Below are positions 1-34,155 of a DNA stretch of 64,000 bases, piece by piece. Position numbers and translations under genes: made by a program. A model generated the notes under the pieces. The model ran no database searches and was not told the DNA's origin. It saw nothing but the letters and a program-made list of their open reading frames with translations. Within the stretch, counting starts at the first letter, position 1, and the number at the start of each line of letters is the position of its first letter. Origin of the DNA: Eledone cirrhosa (Eukaryota); contig OZ024740.1 of the NCBI GenBank assembly GCA_964016885.1, forward strand, positions 91,698,001-91,762,000. The letters are read 5' to 3'.

Positions 1-94
1 TAACTCACTCAATATGCAAATTAGGCTGCTCAGCCGTTAATTTTCATAAGGAAAGTATATACTTTCGAACGTTCAACTATCTGGCAGATGGGTA

Positions 95-140
95 AACGGT
101 GCTGATGATAGCTAATTAAGCTTGAAACTAGTACATCGTT
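95..140 (+). ncRNA. Type I hammerhead ribozyme (family A)
   Basis: AACGGTG-CTGATGA-T-AGCT-AATTA-AGCT-T-GAAA-CTAG-TA-CATCGTT. Helix I AACGGTG/CATCGTT, palindromic helix III ACTAGT, predicted cleavage after GUA (A133). Helix I extends over 71-158. Confidence 0.85.
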
Positions 141-319
141 CCTGTGTCAGTGTTGAACAAAAAGCTGACGTGGTTGCCTTAACACCGTAGGGCATAAATT
201 CAGGCTGTCCGCTTTGTTGACAAACAAACGAACAAAGCGGCCGGCGTTATAATAAACGTCGGCTAAACTGATGCGTGCATATATGTATGTGTACCTGTAT
301 GCATATGTGTATACATGTA

Positions 320-444
<125 letters not shown>

Positions 445-681
445 GCGTGCTACTGTACGTCTGTATACATATGTGTATGTACGTATACATACATACTTAC
501 GTTTAAGTAAGTGCCATTCTAAGAGTGAGAAATGAAATTTCGTTTTCATTTTTTTCAACTCATCGTTTTCGGTATGGCTGACCGATTTAACTCACTCAAT
601 ATGCAAATTAGGCTGCTCAGCCGTTAATTTTCATAAGGAAAGTATATACTTTCGAACGTTCAACTATCTGGCAGATGGGTA

Positions 682-726
682 AACGGTGCTGATGATAGCT
701 AACAGGCTTGAAACTAGTACATCGTT
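682..726 (+). ncRNA. Type I hammerhead ribozyme (family A)
   Basis: AACGGTG-CTGATGA-TAGCTAACAGGCTT-GAAA-CTAG-TA-CATCGTT. Confidence 0.85.
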
Positions 727-897
727 CCTGTGTCAGTGTTGAACAAAAAGGTGACGTGGTTGCCTTAACACGGTATGGCATAAATTCAGGCTGTTCGCTT
801 TGTTGCCAAACAAACGAACAAAGCGGCCGGCGTTATAATAAACGTCGGCTAAACTGATGCGTGCATATATGTATGTGTACCTGTATGCATATGTGTA

Positions 898-960
<63 letters not shown>

Positions 961-1016
961 GCGTGCTACTGTACGTCTGTATACATATGTGTATGTACGT
1001 ATACATACATACTTAC

Positions 1017-1063
<47 letters not shown>

Positions 1064-6521: not shown

Positions 6522-6591
<70 letters not shown>

Positions 6592-6809
6592 TAAGTTAAA
6601 AATGTACATCCACATATGTATACTGAAATACTAGTATGCATATGAATACACACACGTATACATATGTAGATGTACCGAGTTTTTCACTGGTCACTTTACT
6701 GTGAGTGTCCAGCTATTCTGTATGTAAACACACAGACAAACCGGTTTTTAGAGTCATACTGGTTTTTGAGGAAACACCTTTCCTCTATTCTCCAGAAAGC
6801 CAGACAAGG

Positions 6810-6854
6810 AATATTGAACTAGTTTCGATGTTGTTACATCTCATCAGCAATATT
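6810..6854 (-). ncRNA. Type I hammerhead ribozyme (family B, copy 1)
   Basis: Minus strand: AATATTG-CTGATGA-GATGT-AACA-ACATC-GAAA-CTAG-TT-CAATATT. Perfect helices I and II, palindromic ACTAGT helix III, GUU cleavage triplet. Extended helix I spans 6788-6881. Confidence 0.92.
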
Positions 6855-6900
6855 TACCTATCTTCCGGCCTCTCTAGAGAATCGTAAAAGCACATATCGT

Positions 6901-6958
6901 TATATGCTTTTTCTATGAAAATTAATAGTGGGCAGACTAATTTGCATAGAGCGTGAGT
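6901..6958 (-). promoter_or_regulatory. Conserved octamer-containing block upstream of the HHR (putative snRNA-type promoter), present in every family B unit and in family A (e.g. 3-62, 590-650, 20480-20540)
   Basis: Family B: ATGCAAATTAGTCTGCCCACTATTAATTTTCATAGAAAAAGCATATA. Family A: ATGCAAATTAGGCTGCTCAGCCGTTAATTTTCATAAGGAAAGTATATA. Promoter function is inferred only. Confidence 0.4.
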
Positions 6959-7275
6959 ACGTACCGGTTCAACGGAGACGATAAAAACAAATAACGAAAC
7001 GAAATTAAATTTCGTTTCGTTTGTAACTCACTTTTGTATGACTGACGCTTAAACAATTAAGTTAAAAATGTACATCCACATATGTATACTGAAATACTAG
7101 TATGCATATGAATACACACACGTATACATATGTAGATGTACCGAGTTTTTCACTGGTCACTTTACTGTGAGTGTCCAGCTATTCTGTATGTAAACACACA
7201 GACAAACCGGTTTTTAGAGTCATACTGGTTTTTGAGGAAACACCTTTCCTCTATTCTCCAGAAAGCCAGACAAGG

Positions 7276-7320
7276 AATATTGAACTAGTTTCGATGTTGT
7301 TACATCTCATCAGCAATATT
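7276..7320 (-). ncRNA. Type I hammerhead ribozyme (family B, copy 2)
   Basis: Same motif as copy 1, offset +466. Confidence 0.92.
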
Positions 7321-7741
7321 TACCTATCTTCCGGCCTCTCTAGAGAATCGTAAAAGCACATATCGTTATATGCTTTTTCTATGAAAATTAATAGTGGGCA
7401 GACTAATTTGCATAGAGCGTGAGTACGTACCGGTTCAACGGAGACGATAAAAACAAATAACGAAACGAAATTAAATTTCGTTTCGTTTGTAACTCACTTT
7501 TGTATGACTGACGCTTAAACAATTAAGTTAAAAATGTACATCCACATATGTATACTGAAATACTAGTATGCATATGAATACACACACGTATACATATGTA
7601 GATGTACCGAGTTTTTCACTGGTCACTTTACTGTGAGTGTCCAGCTATTCTGTATGTAAACACACAGACAAACCGGTTTTTAGAGTCATACTGGTTTTTG
7701 AGGAAACACCTTTCCTCTATTCTCCAGAAAGCCAGACAAGG

Positions 7742-7786
7742 AATATTGAACTAGTTTCGATGTTGTTACATCTCATCAGCAATATT
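7742..7786 (-). ncRNA. Type I hammerhead ribozyme (family B, copy 3)
   Basis: Same motif as copy 1. Confidence 0.92.
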
Positions 7787-8207
7787 TACCTATCTTCCGG
7801 CCTCTCTAGAGAATCGTAAAAGCACATATCGTTATATGCTTTTTCTATGAAAATTAATAGTGGGCAGACTAATTTGCATAGAGCGTGAGTACGTACCGGT
7901 TCAACGGAGACGATAAAAACAAATAACGAAACGAAATTAAATTTCGTTTCGTTTGTAACTCACTTTTGTATGACTGACGCTTAAACAATTAAGTTAAAAA
8001 TGTACATCCACATATGTATACTGAAATACTAGTATGCATATGAATACACACACGTATACATATGTAGATGTACCGAGTTTTTCACTGGTCACTTTACTCT
8101 GAGTGTCCAGCTATTCTGTATGTAAACACACAGACAAACCGGTTTTTAGAGTCATACTGGTTTTTGAGGAAACACCTTTCCTCTATTCTCCAGAAAGCCA
8201 GACAAGG

Positions 8208-8252
8208 AATATTGAACTAGTTTCGATGTTGTTACATCTCATCAGCAATATT
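8208..8252 (-). ncRNA. Type I hammerhead ribozyme (family B, copy 4)
   Basis: Same motif as copy 1. Confidence 0.92.
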
Positions 8253-8673
8253 TACCTATCTTCCGGCCTCTCTAGAGAATCGTAAAAGCACATATCGTTA
8301 TATGCTTTTTCTATGAAAATTAATAGTGGGCAGACTAATTTGCATAGAGCGTGAGTACGTACCGGTTCAACGGAGACGATAAAAACAAATAACGAAACGA
8401 AATTAAATTTCGTTTCGTTTGTAACTCACTTTTGTATGACTGACGCTTAAACAATTAAGTTAAAAATGTACATCCACATATGTATACTGAAATACTAGTA
8501 TGCATATGAATACACACACGTATACATATGTAGATGTACCGAGTTTTTCACTGGTCACTTTACTGTGAGTGTCCAGCTATTCTGTATGTAAACACACAGA
8601 CAAACCGGTTTTTAGAGTCATACTGGTTTTTGAGGAAACACCTTTCCTCTATTCTCCAGAAAGCCAGACAAGG

Positions 8674-8718
8674 AATATTGAACTAGTTTCGATGTTGTTA
8701 CATCTCATCAGCAATATT
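8674..8718 (-). ncRNA. Type I hammerhead ribozyme (family B, copy 5)
   Basis: Same motif as copy 1. Confidence 0.92.
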
Positions 8719-9139
8719 TACCTATCTTCCGGCCTCTCTAGAGAATCGTAAAAGCACATATCGTTATATGCTTTTTCTATGAAAATTAATAGTGGGCAGA
8801 CTAATTTGCATAGAGCGTGAGTACGTACCGGTTCAACGGAGACGATAAAAACAAATAACGAAACGAAATTAAATTTCGTTTCGTTTGTAACTCACTTTTG
8901 TATGACTGACGCTTAAACAATTAAGTTAAAAATGTACATCCACATATGTATACTGAAATACTAGTATGCATATGAATACACACACGTATACATATGTAGA
9001 TGTACCGAGTTTTTCACTGGTCACTTTACTGTGAGTGTCCAGCTATTCTGTATGTAAACACACAGACAAACCGGTTTTTAGAGTCATACTGGTTTTTGAG
9101 GAAACACCTTTCCTCTATTCTCCAGAAAGCCAGACAAGG

Positions 9140-9184
9140 AATATTGAACTAGTTTCGATGTTGTTACATCTCATCAGCAATATT
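9140..9184 (-). ncRNA. Type I hammerhead ribozyme (family B, copy 6)
   Basis: Same motif as copy 1. Confidence 0.92.
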
Positions 9185-9605
9185 TACCTATCTTCCGGCC
9201 TCTCTAGAGAATCGTAAAAGCACATATCGTTATATGCTTTTTCTATGAAAATTAATAGTGGGCAGACTAATTTGCATAGAGCGTGAGTACGTACCGGTTC
9301 AACGGAGACGATAAAAACAAATAACGAAACGAAATTAAATTTCGTTTCGTTTGTAACTCACTTTTGTATGACTGACGCTTAAACAATTAAGTTAAAAATG
9401 TACATCCACATATGTATACTGAAATACTAGTATGCATATGAATACACACACGTATACATATGTAGATGTACCGAGTTTTTCACTGGTCACTTTACTGTGA
9501 GTGTCCAGCTATTCTGTATGTAAACACACAGACAAACCGGTTTTTAGAGTCATACTGGTTTTTGAGGAAACACCTTTCCTCTATTCTCCAGAAAGCCAGA
9601 CAAGG

Positions 9606-9650
9606 AATATTGAACTAGTTTCGATGTTGTTACATCTCATCAGCAATATT
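9606..9650 (-). ncRNA. Type I hammerhead ribozyme (family B, copy 7)
   Basis: Same motif as copy 1. Confidence 0.92.
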
Positions 9651-10125
9651 TACCTATCTTCCGGCCTCTCTAGAGAATCGTAAAAGCACATATCGTTATA
9701 TGCTTTTTCTATGAAAATTAATAGTGGGCAGACTAATTTGCATAGAGCGTGAGTACGTACCGGTTCAACGGAGACGATAAAAACAAATAACGAAACGAAA
9801 TTAAATTTCGTTTCGTTTGTAACTCACTTTTGTATGACTGACGCTTAAACAATTAAGTTAAAAATGTACATCCACATATGAAAACCAGTATGACTCTAAA
9901 AACCGGTTTGTCTGTGTGTTTACATACAGAATAGCTGGACACTCACAGTAAAGTGACCAGTGAAAAACTCGGTACATCTACATATGTATACGTGTGTGTA
10001 TTCATATGCATACTAGTATTTCAGTATACATATGTGGATGTACATTTTTAACTTAATTGTTTAAGCGTCAGTCATACAAAAGTGAGTTACAAACGAAACG
10101 AAATTTAATTTCGTTTCGTTATTTG

Positions 10126-10182
<57 letters not shown>

Positions 10183-20013: not shown

Positions 20014-20153
20014 TATATATATATATATATATATAAGTTGAAAAAAAATGAAAGCGAAATTTCATTTCTCACTCTTAGTATGGCACTTACTTAAATGTAA
20101 GTATGTATGTATACGTATACATACATATATGTATACAGACGTACAGTAGCATG

Positions 20154-20237
<84 letters not shown>

Positions 20238-20404
20238 CATATACATATATACATACAGGTACACATACATATATGCACGCATCAGTCTAGCGGACGCTTA
20301 TTATACCGCCGCTTTGTTCGTTTGTCAACAAACTGAACAGCCTGAATTTATGCCATACGGTGTTAAGGCAACGACGTCACCTTGTTGTTCAACACTGACA
20401 CAGG

Positions 20405-20449
20405 AACGATGTACTAGTTTCAAGCTTGTTTCCTATCATCAGCACCTTT
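20405..20449 (-). ncRNA. Hammerhead motif (family A), helix II degraded
   Basis: AAAGGTG-CTGATGA-TAGGAAACAAGCTT-GAAA-CTAG-TA-CATCGTT. Confidence 0.55.
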
Positions 20450-20685
20450 TACCCATCTGCCAGATAGTTGAGCGTTCGAAAGTATATACTTTCCTTATGA
20501 AAATTAACGGCTGAGCAGTCTAATTTGCATATTGAGTGAGTTAAATCGGTCAGGCATACCGAAAACGATAAGTTCAAAAAAATGAAAACGAAATTTAATT
20601 TCTCACTCTTAGTATGGCACTTAGTTAAATGTAAGTATGTATGTATACGTACATACATATATGTATACAGACGTACAGTAGCATG

Positions 20686-20763
<78 letters not shown>

Positions 20764-20930
20764 CATATACATATATACATACAGGTACACATACATATAT
20801 GCACGCATCAGTTTAGCGGACGCTTATTATAACGCCGCTTTGTTCGTTTGTCAACAAACTGAACAGCCTGAATTTATGCCATACCATGTTAAAGCAAACA
20901 CGTCACCTTTTTGTTCAACACTGACACAGG

Positions 20931-20975
20931 AACGATGTACTAGTTTCAAGCTTGTTAGCTATCATCAGCACCGTT
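20931..20975 (-). ncRNA. Type I hammerhead ribozyme (family A)
   Basis: AACGGTG-CTGATGA-T-AGCT-AACA-AGCT-T-GAAA-CTAG-TA-CATCGTT. Confidence 0.85.
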
Positions 20976-21212
20976 TACCCATCTGCCAGATAGTTGAACG
21001 TTCGAAAGTATATACTTTCCTTATGAAAATTAACGGCTGAGCAGCCTTATTTGCATGTTGAGTGAGTTAAATCGGTCAGGCATACCGAAAACGATAAGTT
21101 CAAAAAAAATGAAAACGAAATTTCATTTCTCACTCTTAGTATGGCACTTAGTTAAATGTAAGTATGTATGTATACGTACATACATATATGCATACAGACG
21201 TACAGTAGCATG

Positions 21213-21285
<73 letters not shown>

Positions 21286-21477
21286 TTACATATACACATA
21301 CAGGCCGTATGGCATAAATTCAGGCTGTTCAGTTTGTTGACAAACGGACGATGCGGCGTTATAATAAGCGTCCGCTAAACTGAAATAAACTAAAATATAT
21401 ATATGTGTGTGTGCATGCTACTGTACGTCTGTATACATATATGTATGTACGTATACATACATACTTACATATATATA

Positions 21478-21612
<135 letters not shown>

Positions 21613-27199: not shown

Positions 27200-27679
<480 letters not shown>

Positions 27680-27851
27680 TGTTATACTTTGGGAGGGTCA
27701 TGTTGCCAATAAGAAACACACGCACCAGTTGCTTTCACTTCAATTTATTATATATTTATAAATTTATAAATTTACAAATCTACAAATCTACAAACTTATA
27801 AATTTCAGGTTGGTTGGTTGGTTCCACAACCAGATAATTGTTTATATATAT

Positions 27852-27896
27852 AGTCATAGTCCTTTCGTCACACACTCTGTGACCTCTTCAGTGACT
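27852..27896 (-). ncRNA. Type I hammerhead ribozyme in pseudo-LTR
   Basis: AGTCA-CTGAAGA-G-GTCACA-GAGTG-TGTGAC-GAAA-GGAC-TA-TGACT. Confidence 0.72.
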
Positions 27897-28124
27897 GGGG
27901 ATTCCTTTCTTCGTTTCTGTGCCTTTCCTTTCTTCTATCCTACGCCATTTTGTTTCTGTGTGTGTGTTGTGTGCTCAGTTTGCGCATGCCCCACATCCGG
28001 GTGTCTGTGTGTTTGTGTTCATTTTTCTACTTTTCTATTTATATTTTACTATTTGTTTATTTAATTATTTATTTATTGTTGGTTGGTTGTTTGTTCTATG
28101 TGTGTGTGTGTTTTCATTTTGTTC

Positions 28125-30098
28125 TTAATTGTAAGTTGTGATGTTGCTGCTCCACTCATATTTTCTATTTAATTTTGGTTTTAATTCTTTAATGCTTACT
28201 GCCTCTGTAATTTGCCTAAACATTGCGTCTTTTCTGTGTGTGGATTCTATTTTTATTTCTATGCTCTCTAATCTACTCCTGTGTTCTATCTTAGCATGTT
28301 GGTAGAGCACAGATGATTCTTTATTATCTTGGAGGTCTCGCCAGTGTTCATTTATTCGTTCCCCTATACTACGAGCTGTCTCACATATGTACACTATATT
28401 TTTGTTTCTACATTGTCCTTCAGTACATCTCATGTTATACACTACATTTCTAGTTCTACAGTTAATATGGGGGCTTATTTTACAGGTTATACATTTCTTA
28501 TCTATACATGAGGGTCTTTGGAACGGGTATGTCTTGCTAATAAGTGTTTTTACGGAGGTACCAGGTCTCTCTACTATCTTAATATTGAGATTATGTTTAT
28601 TTAGGGCCCTTCTAAATTTGTAGGCTAGTTCGCCTTTAGGGGTTGTATTGATGAACATTACACTCTGGTATTTATTGCTATCATACCATGAGTTTATTCT
28701 ATTGGCCTTGTTCCTAGTTCTTTCTATTCTATTCCAAAATTTGCTCCTATACAAGGGGAAGGTCCCATTTATGTCATTATTTACCATTTTTTCCCATTTG
28801 GTTCTGGCTCCTTTATACACTCTGATTCTATCTCTCTGATTGTAGCCAGAGAACTGCATACGGTGGATGAAGTGTTGTATGTGTCTCTCTAGTTCTTCGG
28901 GGTTGCACATGCGGGACACATTTCTCATCACCCGTACCAAATCCGCAATCAGTATATTGATTTTGGTATGGTCCGAAATGGCTGAGTTTCGGTGGATCAG
29001 ATGTTTGGAAGCCATGGGTTTCGCATAATGGGAATGGAGGATTTGTTTTTGGTTGTTAATGGTATCTAACCAGAGCTCTGTGTCTAGTACAGGTAATCGA
29101 TGGTTGGGGTGTCTACTTGGGTAGTCTATAGTAACTCTAATGCTCTGGTGGATGGAGTTTGCTATTTGCTGGATACTTTCCATTGTGTTTTTCTCTAGTT
29201 CCTGACTGTTCTTTAGTGGGGGTGTCTTAACTACGATGTTTATATCATCTACGTAGCGGGAGTACATTATCAGGGTTAAGCTGTCTTCTAATTGTTCATT
29301 AAGTTTTTGTTTAAGTCTACTGTCCCACCATACCATGAATAAGTTAGCTATGTCGCCTGCAATGCTAACACCAATGGCAGCCCCTTCCTCTTGGGAATGT
29401 GTTTTACCATTAAATTTGAACATATGTTCCTTAAGGGTTAGTTTTATGCTGGCCCCTACCGCATGTGCAATCATTTTCTTCAGTTCATCGTGGTTTTCGG
29501 GTGTCCGTATGTCTCTGGTCCACCCGTTCCATCTATCTGTGTGGGTTTTCTTGGCCATTGAGGTAATGGTAGGTGGTCTGTCTCTTGCTGGTCTTGTAGG
29601 GCACAGGTTGCTAAGGTCATAAGTGTCTAGGTAACTATTACTATGGGTAAGCTTAAGTAGAAGTCCCAGCTCACTGGTATCAATCCCACGGAACTCAACC
29701 TTGCTCTCGCTGATCATTTCTTCGCATTTCACCACAGCAAAATCCACGTCAATAGATGGATACAGGGACACAACATCCATACTGCCTATTATGCAGTTTG
29801 TTAGGTCCCCAGATCGCTTACCTGCGCCGATTCTGCTGAGAAGGTCCTCCGTGCTGTCACACACATCTGGGGACATCTCAATGATGGGGCGTATGATCAG
29901 GGAGAGGAAGTAGGACAGTCTGTAGTTACTAGCAATGTTAGCCCCACTGACTGACCGTGTTGGTGGTCCCGCGACAGGGTCCCAGCACGTTTTATGGTCT
30001 TTTCGAAGCCCATACAACAGCGGCACGTCATTGTTCCAGGCCTGGAAGTTGTTGGCAGTCCTTTTGTTGGGCTGCATTATATTCGTCCACATCACCAT
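28125..30098 (-). CDS. PLE reverse transcriptase plus GIY-YIG endonuclease (C-terminal part of a frameshifted ORF)
   Basis: LYGLRKDHK, SMDVVSLYPSI, QEEGAAIG..GDIANLFM, YSRYVDD, NVVYNMRC..VYICETARSIGERINEH, RQITEAVSI..LN. Confidence 0.9.
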   Translation of the reverse strand: MVMWTNIMQPNKRTANNFQAWNNDVPLLYGLRKDHKTCWDPVAGPPTRSVSGANIASNYRLSYFLSLIIRPIIEMSPDVCDSTEDLLSRIGAGKRSGDLTNCIIGSMDVVSLYPSIDVDFAVVKCEEMISESKVEFRGIDTSELGLLLKLTHSNSYLDTYDLSNLCPTRPARDRPPTITSMAKKTHTDRWNGWTRDIRTPENHDELKKMIAHAVGASIKLTLKEHMFKFNGKTHSQEEGAAIGVSIAGDIANLFMVWWDSRLKQKLNEQLEDSLTLIMYSRYVDDINIVVKTPPLKNSQELEKNTMESIQQIANSIHQSIRVTIDYPSRHPNHRLPVLDTELWLDTINNQKQILHSHYAKPMASKHLIHRNSAISDHTKINILIADLVRVMRNVSRMCNPEELERHIQHFIHRMQFSGYNQRDRIRVYKGARTKWEKMVNNDINGTFPLYRSKFWNRIERTRNKANRINSWYDSNKYQSVMFINTTPKGELAYKFRRALNKHNLNIKIVERPGTSVKTLISKTYPFQRPSCIDKKCITCKISPHINCRTRNVVYNMRCTEGQCRNKNIVYICETARSIGERINEHWRDLQDNKESSVLYQHAKIEHRSRLESIEIKIESTHRKDAMFRQITEAVSIKELKPKLNRKYEWSSNITTYN

Positions 30099-30954
30099 AT
30101 GGGCATTGAGGGCTTTTTCTCTATCCTCATGCTCCTGTGGTGTTACCTCTCTTGTGTTAGTGATGTGGGTTGCATTGCCTGGATGTAGTTTGGCAGACTG
30201 TCAACCGACATTCTGCCAGACTTGTCTGTTGGAGAACATGCTATCTCTCCATTACGCGAGCGCTGCATGAGCTTACGCAAGCCATTTGCGGATTCTTCTC
30301 CCAGTTGCTGGGCCTCTATTCTATTATGCGTCTTGCTATACTGTTCTATAATATTTCTAAGTTCGGATTTAGCTATACTAAATTGTGCTTCTGTTTGTTC
30401 ATCGACCTGCGACGGCAACTGCGTGCGTTTGTTAAATGGCAAAGTCGTGGCGTGGACTCGTCGTAGGTCGAATGATTTATCGGAGGGGTTATAAAACGGA
30501 GAGTTCCAGGCTGCTGCTTTATGTGTACTAGTGCTATTATTATTGTTAGTTGTGTTGTTTCTATTTCTATTTCCACCAACAGCCTCAGCTTCATGGTTGT
30601 TTCTATGTCTCTCATAATTACTCCTGTCTCTTTCCACTGGCTCAATGTTGTTATCTACCCTATTTTGTGTGTCTGTGTGTTCGTCTTGGTTATTCTCTTT
30701 GTCCTTAGTCTCCCATCTCCTTTTACTTTTAATCCTATTACTTTCTCTTATTTCTCTGATTTCTGTGCTACTGTCATTACTTGTTTTCTGTGTCTGTGTG
30801 TTTGTTAAGAGTGTGGTGGTGGTGAGAGGCATTGAATGCGTGTGTGTTGTTGTTGTTGATGTGTGTTGTTGTTGATGTGTGTTGTTGTTGTCTCCGTGTG
30901 TATGTGTGTTATCGTTGTTGTGTGTGTTGTTATTGTTGTTTGTGTCTGCGTGTC

Positions 30955-31210
30955 TGTTGTTGTTGTATCTGGGTATGTTGCTATTGTTGTTGTTGTTGAT
31001 GTGTGTGTTGTTGTTATTGTTGTCTCCGTGTGTGTTATCGTTGTTGTGTGCGTTGTTATTGTTGTTTGTGTCTGCGTGTCTGTTGTTGTTGTATCTGGGT
31101 ATGTTGCTATTGTTGTTGTTGTATCTGGGTATGTTGCTATTGTTGTTGTTGTATCTGGGTATGTTGCTATTGTTGTTGTTGTATCTGGGTATGTTGCTAT
31201 TGTTGTTGTT
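30955..31210. repeat. 30-bp minisatellite (TGTTGTTGTTGTATCTGGGTATGTTGCTAT) within a (GTT)-rich tract in the PLE N-terminal region
   Basis: Four tandem copies at 31081-31200 plus one near 30955. Confidence 0.85.
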
Positions 31211-32179
31211 GTTGTTATTGTTGTTTGTGTCTGTGTGTCTGTTGTTGTTGGGATGTGTGTTGTATATGTGTGTGCGTATATTGTTGCTTTTGTTTTTGAT
31301 GCTCCAGCGTAGTTTTGTAAATTATTTTTCTATTTCTGACAGACAACTAATCATATTTACCTTCTTGAATGTCGCAAATTTGGGTGGCAGACGTAACACA
31401 GACATTTCATTATTATCTACTTCCGTGTTTCCATAAATGTTGGTATTTTCGTTGTTGAACTCTTCAGATAATGAGGTGTCGGCCATGTTGATACCGTCAA
31501 TTTTGTCGGGATATCTATTGGTATGCTCTATAGTATCCCGATTTAGCTTTGCCTGTTTAAGCCACTTTAATTTTCTGTTAAAGTGCTTATCACATTCTTG
31601 AGTAATGTACTGTTCTTCGGGGCGTATAAGGCTTATAAATGTTAGTTTTTCTGCTGGTGTGGTGATTTTAGATATTTCTTGTATTAGGTTACGCTTTAGT
31701 TTTTCTTGATGACTTAATTCTCTATAGATCTTCTTTTTTATGTTTAGAATTAAAGTTCGTTTTAGCCTATCTGCTTGTTTTTTGGTGAGTTGTAATCTTC
31801 TAACGTCGGTATTTATGGTGTTGGTGTAGATTCTAGAAGTGGTGCACAGTTTTATGAAGCGTAGTTGTCGAGATGTTATGGTTTTTCTTAGACAACAGAA
31901 CATGGTGGTTTTCAGTATCTTGTTAGCCTGGCTAAGGCTTACGATATTTCGTTTCTGAATTTGTTTAGCAAGATTATTTATCTGAAATCGTGTTTTGAAA
32001 CCGATATTGTTATACTTTGGGAGGGTCATGTTGCCAATAAGAAACACATGCACCAGTAGCATTCACTTCAATTTATTATATATTTATAAATTTATAAATT
32101 TACAAATCTACAAATCTACAAACTTATACATTTCTGGTTGGTTGGTTGGTTCCACAACCAGATAGTTGTTTATATATAT

Positions 32180-32224
32180 AGTCATAGTCCTTTCGTCACA
32201 CACTCTGTGACCTCTTCAGTGACT
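32180..32224 (-). ncRNA. Type I hammerhead ribozyme in pseudo-LTR
   Basis: Same motif as 27852-27896. Confidence 0.72.
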
Positions 32225-34155
32225 GGGGATTTCTTTCTTCATTTCTGTGCCTTTCCTTTCTTCTATCCTACGCCATTTTGTTTCTGTGTGTGTGTTGTGT
32301 GCTCAGTTTGCGCATGCGCCACATCCGGGTGTCTGTGTGTGTTTATGTTCATTTTTCTATTTTTCCATTTTTATTTTTCTATTTGTTTATTTATTTATTT
32401 ATTTATTGTTGGTTGGTTGTTTGTTCTATGTGTGTGTGTGTGTGTTTTCATTTTGTCCTGTGTGTGTTTTCATTTTGTGTGTGTTTTCAATTGTAAGTTG
32501 TTTGTTCTATGTGTGTGTGTGTGTTTTCATTTTGTCCTTAATTGTAAGTTGTGATGTTGCTGTTCCACTCATATTTTCTATTTAATTTTGGTTTTAATTA
32601 TTTTATGCTTACTGCCTCTGTAATTTGCCTAAACATTGCGTCTTTTCTGTGTGTGGATTCTATTTTTATTTCTATGCTCTCTAATCTACCCCTGTGTTCT
32701 ATCTTAGCATGTTGGTAGAGCACAGATGATTATTTATTATCTTGGAGGTCTCGCCAGTGTTTATATTGGAATAGAATAGAAAGAACTAGGAACAAGGCCA
32801 ATAGAATAAACTCATGGTATGATAGCAATAAATACCAGAGTGTAATGTTAATCAATACAACCCCTAGAGGCGAACTAGCCTACAAATTTAGAAGGGCCCT
32901 AAATAAACATAATCTCAATATTAAGATAGTAGAAAGACCTGGTACCTCCGTAAAAACACTTATTAGCAAGACATACCCGTTCCAAAGACCCTCATGTATA
33001 GATAAGAAATGTATAACCTGTAAAATAAGCCCCCATATTAACTGTAAACCTAGAAATGTAGAGTATAGCATGAGATGTACCGAAGGACAATGTCGAAACA
33101 AAAATATAGTGTACATAGGTGAGACAGCTCGTAGTATAGGGGAACGAATAAATGAACACTGGCGAGACCTCCAAGATAATAAAGAATCATCATTTCTTAA
33201 TTATATATGTTTTCAATGACACCCTCTAAAGCTTTTTTTTAAACGTAGATTAATAACCATTACCTGATTTTAGAAAAAAATTATCCTATTCAAGACGATG
33301 TTTAAGCATTCATATTTCTTTCGACTAAATAATTAATTAATCACACAATAACTCTTAAAAACCTTTATCGATTAACAAATAAAATTGGAGTTATCTTCCT
33401 TTCTCAATTATATAAACTTCGTTAATTTAATTTAAAACATTCTCAATGTCGAACAAGTTATCCAAATATATAAAATCATCATTTTAACTACCTATTTATT
33501 TACATAAAATAGAAAATCAACATATCTCGTAACTCATATTAAAAACAACCACATAAAGCTTCAACTACCTATTTACCTATTTAATTATCTACATTAAACA
33601 CAAAAACAACATTCCTCGTAACTCATATTATAAACAACTAATAATTGCAACTTATCTTTTTAATAAAAATACATATGCTATTATTAAAATATATATAGGT
33701 ATTTATATATTTAACCCACTACAATATTATAATCAGATAATAAATACTTACAAACATAATTCTACATATAACTATATACATAATATAGGTAAATATTCAA
33801 ATTTATTTCCCCCAAATTAACCTTTATAAGTGGTCTTCTTTTTCCTATTTTCTTTTTTTCCTTTTTACTTTTCCTTCTTCTTCTTCTTTTTCCTTTTCAT
33901 TTTTCTTTTTCTTCTTTTTTTCTTTTTTTTTCTTTTTTCTTGTTTAATTCTTTCTCTGTTACTAATACATCTAAACTTTCCATAGCGTTTAAAATAACGG
34001 GTTTTCAAGCATATAACTCAAACTTATTTACATATTCATATGCATACACTTCCATAAGTTTGAAAAATCCGTTCTTTAATCTCACCTCCCAAGGAAAATT
34101 CAACTGATAAGGTATGTTTTCCTGGGCTATGTCAACGTTTATAAAACACTCTTTG

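What the first reader, a model, noticed from the sequence alone, without database searches (positions are those of the whole stretch)
71..158. Sister family A keeps the same extended HHR fold through compensatory changes
Seen: families A and B differ in sequence but fold identically. Proximal helix I is AACGGTG/CATCGTT in A and AATATTG/CAATATT in B. The middle helix is CTGGCA/TGTCAG vs GCCGGA/TCTGGC. The distal helix is GTTCAAC/GTTGAAC vs TTCTCTAG/CTGGAGAA. Helix II is AGCT/AGCT vs GATGT/ACATC. Unpaired parts are retained: internal loop GATGGGTA vs GATAGGTA, loop II AACA (most copies) and helix III ACTAGT. Established: loop I-loop II tertiary contacts give fast HHR cleavage. Inference: selection on RNA structure indicates functional ribozymes and an old, diversified retrozyme lineage. 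Family A is at three separate loci here, two with inverted tails.
Basis: partly seen in the sequence, partly recalled or inferred. Interest (0 to 1): 0.75.

Follow-up and report, generated by a model that had tools for sequence, protein, structure and literature searches.

The report
Penelope-pasted hammerhead retrozyme sister families
This is one copy of a very abundant non-coding repeat whose related families keep a standard hammerhead (self-cutting RNA) fold through paired sequence changes; the RNA is predicted to cut mainly as a tandem pair, and the copies were likely pasted into the genome by a borrowed Penelope retrotransposon enzyme.

Summary
The hammerhead is real and so is the covariation. 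Between A and B, 5 of 12 core-anchored pairs change on both sides and none break. Further families (G, E) and subfamilies add more such changes. A and B are true sisters over the whole monomer.

Helix I is the canonical 6 bp, and the 'internal loop' mostly pairs. A has a U·U mismatch at the base of helix II. The outer extension differs in geometry between families. The retained loops are generic type I features that also match human HH9. Helix III is 1 bp plus a palindrome, so folding favours a double hammerhead over a fast monomer.

About 57,000 cores occur genome-wide as back-to-back arrays in (TA)n. They end at two fixed internal sites, the Penelope 'tail' footprint. A, G and B also carry the host's U6 upstream 12-mer.

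It is a new member of the known non-LTR retrozymes. Cleavage and circular RNA are untested. The scan noted the tail footprint and the U6-like promoter before, on other DNA of this genome.

The parts
71..158 (+). Family A type I hammerhead with helix I extension (copy 1; atypical 5-nt loop II)
102..133 (+). Catalytic core: CUGAUGA 102-108; U·U at 109/123; helix II 110-113/119-122; GAA 124-126; palindromic helix III 127-132; predicted cut after 133 (GUA)
   Evidence: sequence; pair tables
90..143 (+). Canonical helix I: 6 bp (96-101 with 134-139), UA bulge 93-94, then 3 bp (90-92 with 141-143)
   Evidence: same layout as Rfam HH9 in B
71..86 (+). 5' arms of the distal (71-77) and middle (81-86) extension helices, pairing with 152-158 and 145-150
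   Evidence: common variants keep pairing in 74 haplotypes
13..24 (+). 12-mer identical to an element at -77 to -79 of host U6 genes, with a TATA-like box at 56-61; candidate internal promoter
   Evidence: function inferred
1..1020 (+). Locus 1, forward arm: tandem A monomers with internal (TA)n, ending at the 'short' fixed end next to (TA)n; inverted arm of two copies lies upstream of the window
658..744 (+). Family A hammerhead, copy 2 (core at 689, loop II AACA)
20033..21300 (-). Locus 2 main arm: intact copy (core 20968) and damaged copy (core 20442), ending at the 'long' fixed end
21305..21480 (+). Locus 2 inverted arm ending at the 'short' fixed end
   Evidence: L024
44660..46430 (-). 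Locus 3: old A subfamily copy with broken core and an inverted arm, interrupted by an unrelated retroelement fragment in its internal (TA)n
6585..9880 (-). Sister family B: seven 466-bp monomers, each with a hammerhead (G-C at 10.1/11.1, GUU site); short end at 6585
9881..10128 (+). Family B inverted arm ending at the long end, next to (TA)n

Best explanation
Family A is a non-coding tandem repeat carrying a canonical type I hammerhead fold kept by compensatory changes across sister families; it is likely a non-autonomous retrozyme whose tandem transcripts are predicted to self-cleave mainly as a double hammerhead, and whose RNA is likely copied into (TA)n by a borrowed Penelope-like RT/endonuclease. 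Steps: (1) shown: core, helices and pair-preserving changes. (2) Inferred: transcription of arrays, possibly from the internal U6-like element. (3) Predicted: two neighbouring units pair their palindromic helix III, cut, and the monomer or multimer is ligated into a circle. (4) Shown: insertions are back-to-back arms in (TA)n with two fixed internal 3' ends and scattered 5' ends. (5) Inferred: a Penelope protein nicks both strands and starts reverse transcription at the two internal sites, running round the template to give tandem arms. Selection likely acts on the source elements, not for the host. The outer extension is likely part of the self-paired RNA rod rather than a special catalytic module.
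For: Covariation: A vs B 5 of 12 pairs changed on both sides, 0 broken; all six lineage pairs give 4-7 such changes with 0 broken, null at most 13 of 100,000. Twenty hand-picked representatives: 95.3% of cells paired vs at most 49% for slid partners. Within A, helix I pair 3 is G·U 22, U·G 27, A-U 10, U·U 2, never G·G or A·G. Within B, helix II switches between A-U and U-A in subfamilies of 4,289 and about 5,345 cores. The helix III centre is UA, GC or AU by family and always palindromic, a pair that cannot form inside one monomer. The double hammerhead is 7.6-15.4 kcal/mol below two single ones and is the free minimum for E. Ends: 50 of 54 B 3' ends fall at two sites. Junction 5' ends near the cut site: 0 of 38 (A), 0 of 40 (B), 0 of 10 (E). 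One short plus one long arm: 11 of 15 B, 3 of 4 E and 12 of 17 A insertions. Two internal RT start sites make the Penelope tail in vitro (PMC11167929). Coding elements with Hydra-clade motifs in this genome show the same two-end, (TA)n pattern.
Against: Cleavage and circles are untested. Rfam finds no hammerhead in A even at E 10, and B scores 36.5 bits, under the cut-off of 52. In A dimers the free minimum is an inactive fold 4-6 kcal/mol below the double hammerhead. In vitro, hammerhead mutants did not affect Penelope insertion (PMC11167929), and 8 of 9 Xenopus retrozyme dimers did not cleave (10.64898/2026.07.22.740005). The count of pairs with double changes is reached by 30 of 500 shuffles, and only 3-4 lineages are independent. 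No autonomous partner with sequence homology to A or B was found in 30 Hydra-type loci or 15 extended stretches. One B insertion has two long ends. The U6-like motif sits 43-44 nt from its TATA vs 47-51 in U6, E lacks it, and whole-promoter alignment was not significant.
Confidence: 0.7

Rival explanations
1. One reading: each unit is a fast monomeric hammerhead, with loop I-loop II contacts and the long extension driving efficient cleavage.
For: UA bulge and AAYA loop II are kept in all four lineages and match HH9. Extension pairs are kept within A and within B. A coral retrozyme monomer cleaves at about 0.8 per min (PMC7229834).
Against: Helix III is 1 bp plus a palindromic tetraloop; A, G and most E lack the 10.1/11.1 pair. 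Axolotl ribozymes with either defect cleaved 6% and 22% per hour as monomers and much better as dimers (PMC7229834). Extension geometry differs among A, B and E.
Confidence: 0.13
2. The fold is selected as a protein-binding or packaging scaffold, or as a protein-assisted ribozyme. Uncut linear multimer transcripts, not circles, are the template for the Penelope enzyme.
For: No array end or junction maps to the cut site. Unprocessed RNA was the main insertion substrate in vitro, and that hammerhead needed protein (PMC11167929). A keeps a mismatch next to the core.
Against: All catalytic core positions and an NUH triplet persist across lineages whose stems have turned over. Arms reach more than 30 near-identical units. 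Circles are shown for other metazoan retrozymes (PMC7229834).
Confidence: 0.13
3. The apparent covariation is a DNA-level effect (template switching in near-palindromes plus satellite homogenisation) with no selection on RNA.
For: The elements are rich in hairpins and palindromes and sit in tandem arrays.
Against: G·U pairs, bulges and the U·U mismatch are kept rather than erased, and the coding strand of A and B folds 7-15 kcal/mol better than its complement in three of four representatives (E and G show no such bias). A U·U intermediate exists at helix I pair 3. Dispersed two-armed insertions with fixed ends need retrotransposition.
Confidence: 0.04

Closest known systems
Metazoan non-LTR retrozymes (Cervera and de la Pena 2020, PMC7229834; passages read)
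   Same: Non-coding tandem units of low GC (34-39%), one type I hammerhead each, highly self-paired, tens of thousands of copies. A U·U at the base of helix II (Amex2) and a 1-bp palindromic helix III (Amex1) are both described in axolotl.
   Different: Monomers here are 416-590 nt (A) and 466 nt (B), above the 170-400 nt reported. A combines both weak features. Back-to-back arms with two fixed ends and a U6-like motif were not in the passages read. No RNA evidence here.
pDo500 hammerhead satellite of cave crickets (Martinsen et al. 2010, PMC2837043; abstract read)
   Same: Compensatory stem changes and a conserved core in a tandem hammerhead repeat, read as selection for function: the same argument as this finding.
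   Different: That study compares species; here diverged families share one genome and carry Penelope-type ends.
Penelope-like elements, Hydra clade and PAc (PMC8557442 passages and section 11; PMC11167929 main text)
   Same: Tandem plus inverted 5'-truncated arms, a tail at one end only, (TA)n targets, type I hammerhead with palindromic helix III.
   Different: No ORF. The tail is about 60 nt (A), 70 nt (B) or 27 nt (E) vs 30-40 bp. Canonical rather than minimal hammerhead. No homologous autonomous partner identified.
Retrozymes as non-autonomous PLE derivatives (bioRxiv 10.64898/2026.07.22.740005; parts 1-3 of 5 read)
   Same: Proposes PLE origin and mobilisation of animal retrozymes.
   Different: Its evidence is co-occurrence and pLTR homology in Xenopus. 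The word 'tail' has 0 hits in it. Here the evidence is the insertion footprint, without pLTR homology.

Membership tests
Canonical type I hammerhead ribozyme | CUGANGA / GAAA / UH core with three helices, helix I open | tested here: met
   B aligns to Rfam HH9 at E 1.1e-7 but under the cut-off; A has no Rfam hit
Canonical type I hammerhead ribozyme | 6-bp helix I, loop I bulge and loop II nucleotides for tertiary contact | tested here: met
   UA bulge and AAY(A/G) loop in A, G, B and E; the contact itself is not tested
Canonical type I hammerhead ribozyme | G10.1-C11.1 pair closing helix II (recalled as the usual state) | tested here: not met
   A: U·U 59 of 61, C·A 2 of 61; met in B (31 of 31, by pattern). 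U·U is a described natural variant (Amex2, PMC7229834)
Canonical type I hammerhead ribozyme | Site-specific self-cleavage | not testable with these tools
   needs in vitro transcription
Non-LTR retrozyme | Short non-coding tandem repeats with one hammerhead per unit, GC under 45% | tested here: met
   monomers longer than the reported range
Non-LTR retrozyme | Highly self-paired monomer | tested here: met
   circular folds z -6 to -12 against 30 shuffles each
Non-LTR retrozyme | Abundant circular RNA | not testable with these tools
   no raw RNA reads were available to test this
Penelope-mobilised element | Tandem plus inverted 5'-truncated arms, tail at one end, AT-rich target | tested here: met
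Penelope-mobilised element | Sequence homology to the pLTR or tail of an autonomous partner | tested here: inconclusive
   none for A or B in 30 loci of one Hydra-type family and 15 extended stretches; 150 of 92,002 candidates scored
Autonomous Penelope-like element | RT plus GIY-YIG ORF | tested here: not met
   no coding ORF in the monomers
U6-type (snRNA-type) promoter | Host U6 upstream element plus TATA at U6 spacing | tested here: inconclusive
   12-mer shared with 6 of 9 distinct U6 upstreams (3 loci), 0 of 7 U2; in A 94 of 120, B 46 of 64, G 4 of 7, E 0 of 9; spacing 4-7 nt shorter

The most novel reading that the evidence does not exclude
A, G and B form one lineage of self-transcribing retrozymes. 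They carry the host's U6 upstream element, cut only as double hammerheads, circularise, and are copied from one RNA into both strands of a (TA)n break by a Penelope enzyme starting at two internal sites. That would give a complete, testable life cycle for animal retrozymes.
Probability: 0.3. Interest if true: 0.7.

Novelty: new member of a known kind. Interest (0 to 1): 0.45.

Why it matters
Compensatory change in a satellite hammerhead is expected and published. The added value is the natural series of A, G, B and E variants. It separates what is kept (core, UA bulge, AAYA loop, palindromic helix III, paired rod) from what is free (stem sequence, the 10.1/11.1 pair, extension geometry). The insertion ends also name two RT start sites per family. 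Which enzyme moves animal retrozymes, and whether cleavage matters for it, is open in the papers read; these elements make both directly testable.

Tried and rejected
Rfam: no hit at gathering level in the window; no hammerhead hit for A at E 10, only repeat-driven miRNA matches. RNA evidence: no RNA holder listed. Four contig sets of unknown kind hold B in tandem or closed form; A was laid in two of the four. This says nothing on expression or absence. Partner search: one Hydra-type family only, with no homology to A or B beyond embedded copies and low-complexity matches, and a weak 34-nt match to E. That ORF has no Pfam hit and no BLAST similarity to the window's other PLE, so 'Hydra' rests on motifs. 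E as a sister of A/B: not supported outside the ribozyme (z 0.5-3.3). Whole U6 promoter alignment: not significant (125-241 of 1000 shuffles as good). A-family end mapping with one reference left 9 of 15 junctions with an unclassified end; it was redone with two references on other loci. Alignment A2 had one row on the wrong strand and was not used. R-scape is not available and no covariance model was built, because only 3-4 independent lineages exist. Martick and Scott 2006, Coats 1994 and Lunse 2017 were not held and were not read. No supplements were read; those of the 2026 preprint are closed and may list related invertebrate families.

Full report
Observation. Positions 71-158 hold a type I hammerhead: core at 102-133, predicted cut after 133. 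It folds at z -3.2 on the + strand and -1.4 on the other; B folds at z -5.4. A occurs at three loci and B as seven 466-bp units plus an inverted arm. The locus-1 inverted arm lies just outside the window. Exact-pattern counts in the 3.0-Gb genome are 28,552 A-type cores (control 1), 4,289 plus about 5,345 B-type cores (minus 20), 19,012 cores mostly of a 310-bp family E by the first 100 listed, and 637 further cores, many of an old family G. Only the first 100 places of each search were seen, so family labels for the totals are extrapolated.

Are A and B sisters? Yes. Outside the ribozyme they align at z 22-25 against shuffles, while E does not (z 0.5-3.3). A vs B is 290 of 407 aligned positions identical. 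G is a decayed relative of A at 65-72%.

Covariation. I anchored on the core and counted distinct haplotypes that passed a core pattern (A 66, G 12, B 31, E 7). I used 12 pairs and left out six: the 7th helix I position, 10.1/11.1, one outer pair and helix III. A vs B gives 7 same, 5 changed on both sides, 0 broken (4 of 100,000 random scatterings). The other five lineage pairs give 4-7 double changes, 0 broken. On 20 hand-picked representatives, 11 of 16 pairs show a double change and 95.3% of cells pair; shuffles reach the pair count 30 of 500 times and the cell measures 0 of 500. Relatedness inflates these, and the structure was derived from the same sequences. Within A, helix I pair 3 is G·U, U·G or A-U in 59 of 61 haplotypes. 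Among 74 A haplotypes, common variants keep pairing at 22 of 23 pairs; the exception is an A·G in 18 at one outer pair. In B (52 of 57 haplotypes), extension variants are mostly G·U/G-C/A-U swaps, but one middle pair is U·U in 18.

Helix I is 6 bp (7th position U·U in 54 of 61). The 'internal loop' pairs with CCU except a UA bulge. That bulge and loop II also match Rfam HH9 (B: E 1.1e-7, under the cut-off), so they mark canonical type I ribozymes in general (PMC4209133 passages). A has a mismatch at 10.1/11.1 (U·U or C·A; G has A·A). The extension is a paired rod of differing geometry: two helices in A, one 17-18 bp rod in B, a 16-bp rod in E. Whole monomers are strongly self-paired, so the extension is likely part of that rod.

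Monomer or dimer. Helix III is A-U plus a palindromic tetraloop whose centre is UA, GC or AU by family. In real tandem dimers the double hammerhead is 10.8 (A), 7.6 (A2), 15.4 (B) and 15.0 (E) kcal/mol below two single ones; for A and A2 an inactive fold is 4-6 lower still. The model ignores tertiary contacts and any palindrome gains this energy, so this is a prediction. Axolotl ribozymes with a 1-bp helix III or a U·U in helix II cleave poorly alone and well as dimers (PMC7229834 passages).

Insertion footprint. With overlapping loci collapsed by flank, 23 of 54 B 3' ends lie 228-233 nt and 27 of 54 lie 299-303 nt past the cut site. E ends lie at 138-139 and 164-170 (12 of 13 listed, two listed twice). 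A ends cluster near 262-272 and 320-331. Most abut (TA)n. Back-to-back arms carry one short and one long end in 11 of 15 B and 3 of 4 E insertions and 12 of 17 A insertions; the rest have an unclassified end, except one B with two long ends. Junction 5' ends are scattered and none of 88 lies at the cut site. This matches the PLE tandem/inverted/tail structure (PMC8557442) and the two internal RT starts shown in vitro (PMC11167929). Elements with Hydra-clade motifs are abundant here (92,002 candidates, 150 scored) and show two ends and (TA)n flanks, but none sampled is homologous to A or B.

Promoter lead. A 12-mer at window 13-24 equals the element at -77 to -79 of host U6 genes (6 of 9 distinct upstreams, 3 loci; 0 of 7 U2). 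It is present in 94 of 120 A, 46 of 64 B, 4 of 7 G and 0 of 9 E upstreams. The spacing to TATA is 43-44 vs 47-51. Internal Pol III and snRNA-type promoters are reported for schistosome and newt hammerhead satellites (seen only as a passage in PMC2220036). I had noticed the block; an earlier scan note prompted the U6 test.

Verdict. A real, compensated, canonical hammerhead in a new set of non-LTR retrozyme families with a Penelope footprint. The same kind of covariation is published for cricket satellites (PMC2837043 abstract). Paper searches found no description of the twin-arm footprint in retrozymes. The scan's earlier notes report it for this genome. Cleavage, circles, promoter use and the partner enzyme are untested. 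Interest 0.45.

Noticed in passing
window 27265-33191: A near-complete coding Penelope-like element (691-aa ORF at 28125-30200, - strand) flanked by two minimal hammerheads (cores at 32219 and 27891) with an inverted arm at 32763-33191.
   Followed up: partly
L252-L266 (e.g. L254:1615-3711): Very abundant PLE with Hydra-clade motifs; its hammerhead has a long helix II and an A-T-only palindromic helix III, followed by two fixed ends about 95 nt apart next to (TA)n. No Pfam hit.
   Followed up: partly
L143:1822-3042 and L152-L181: Family E, 310-bp monomer, same hammerhead layout and twin arms but no homology to A/B and no U6-like motif; one copy sits directly beside an A insertion.
   Followed up: yes
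L092, L093: B array in which two monomer variants alternate; could reflect a dimeric template or a higher-order duplication.
   Followed up: no
L268, L287, L220: Older single hammerheads with longer helices; two carry the U6-like motif upstream, suggesting further extinct relatives.
   Followed up: partly
L075, L048, L062: A and B fragments directly joined or nested at shared (TA)n sites.
   Followed up: no
window 9415-9880 laid on X4, X5, X6: B at about 97-99% identity appears as a tandem or closed unit in runs labelled as three other organisms, at low depth; relatives, contamination or RNA circles cannot be told apart.
   Followed up: partly
L303-L309: Some U6 genes of a tandem array have a small insertion between the upstream element and the TATA box.
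   Followed up: no
window 6233 and 34164: Further hammerhead-like cores belonging to other PLE ends.
   Followed up: no
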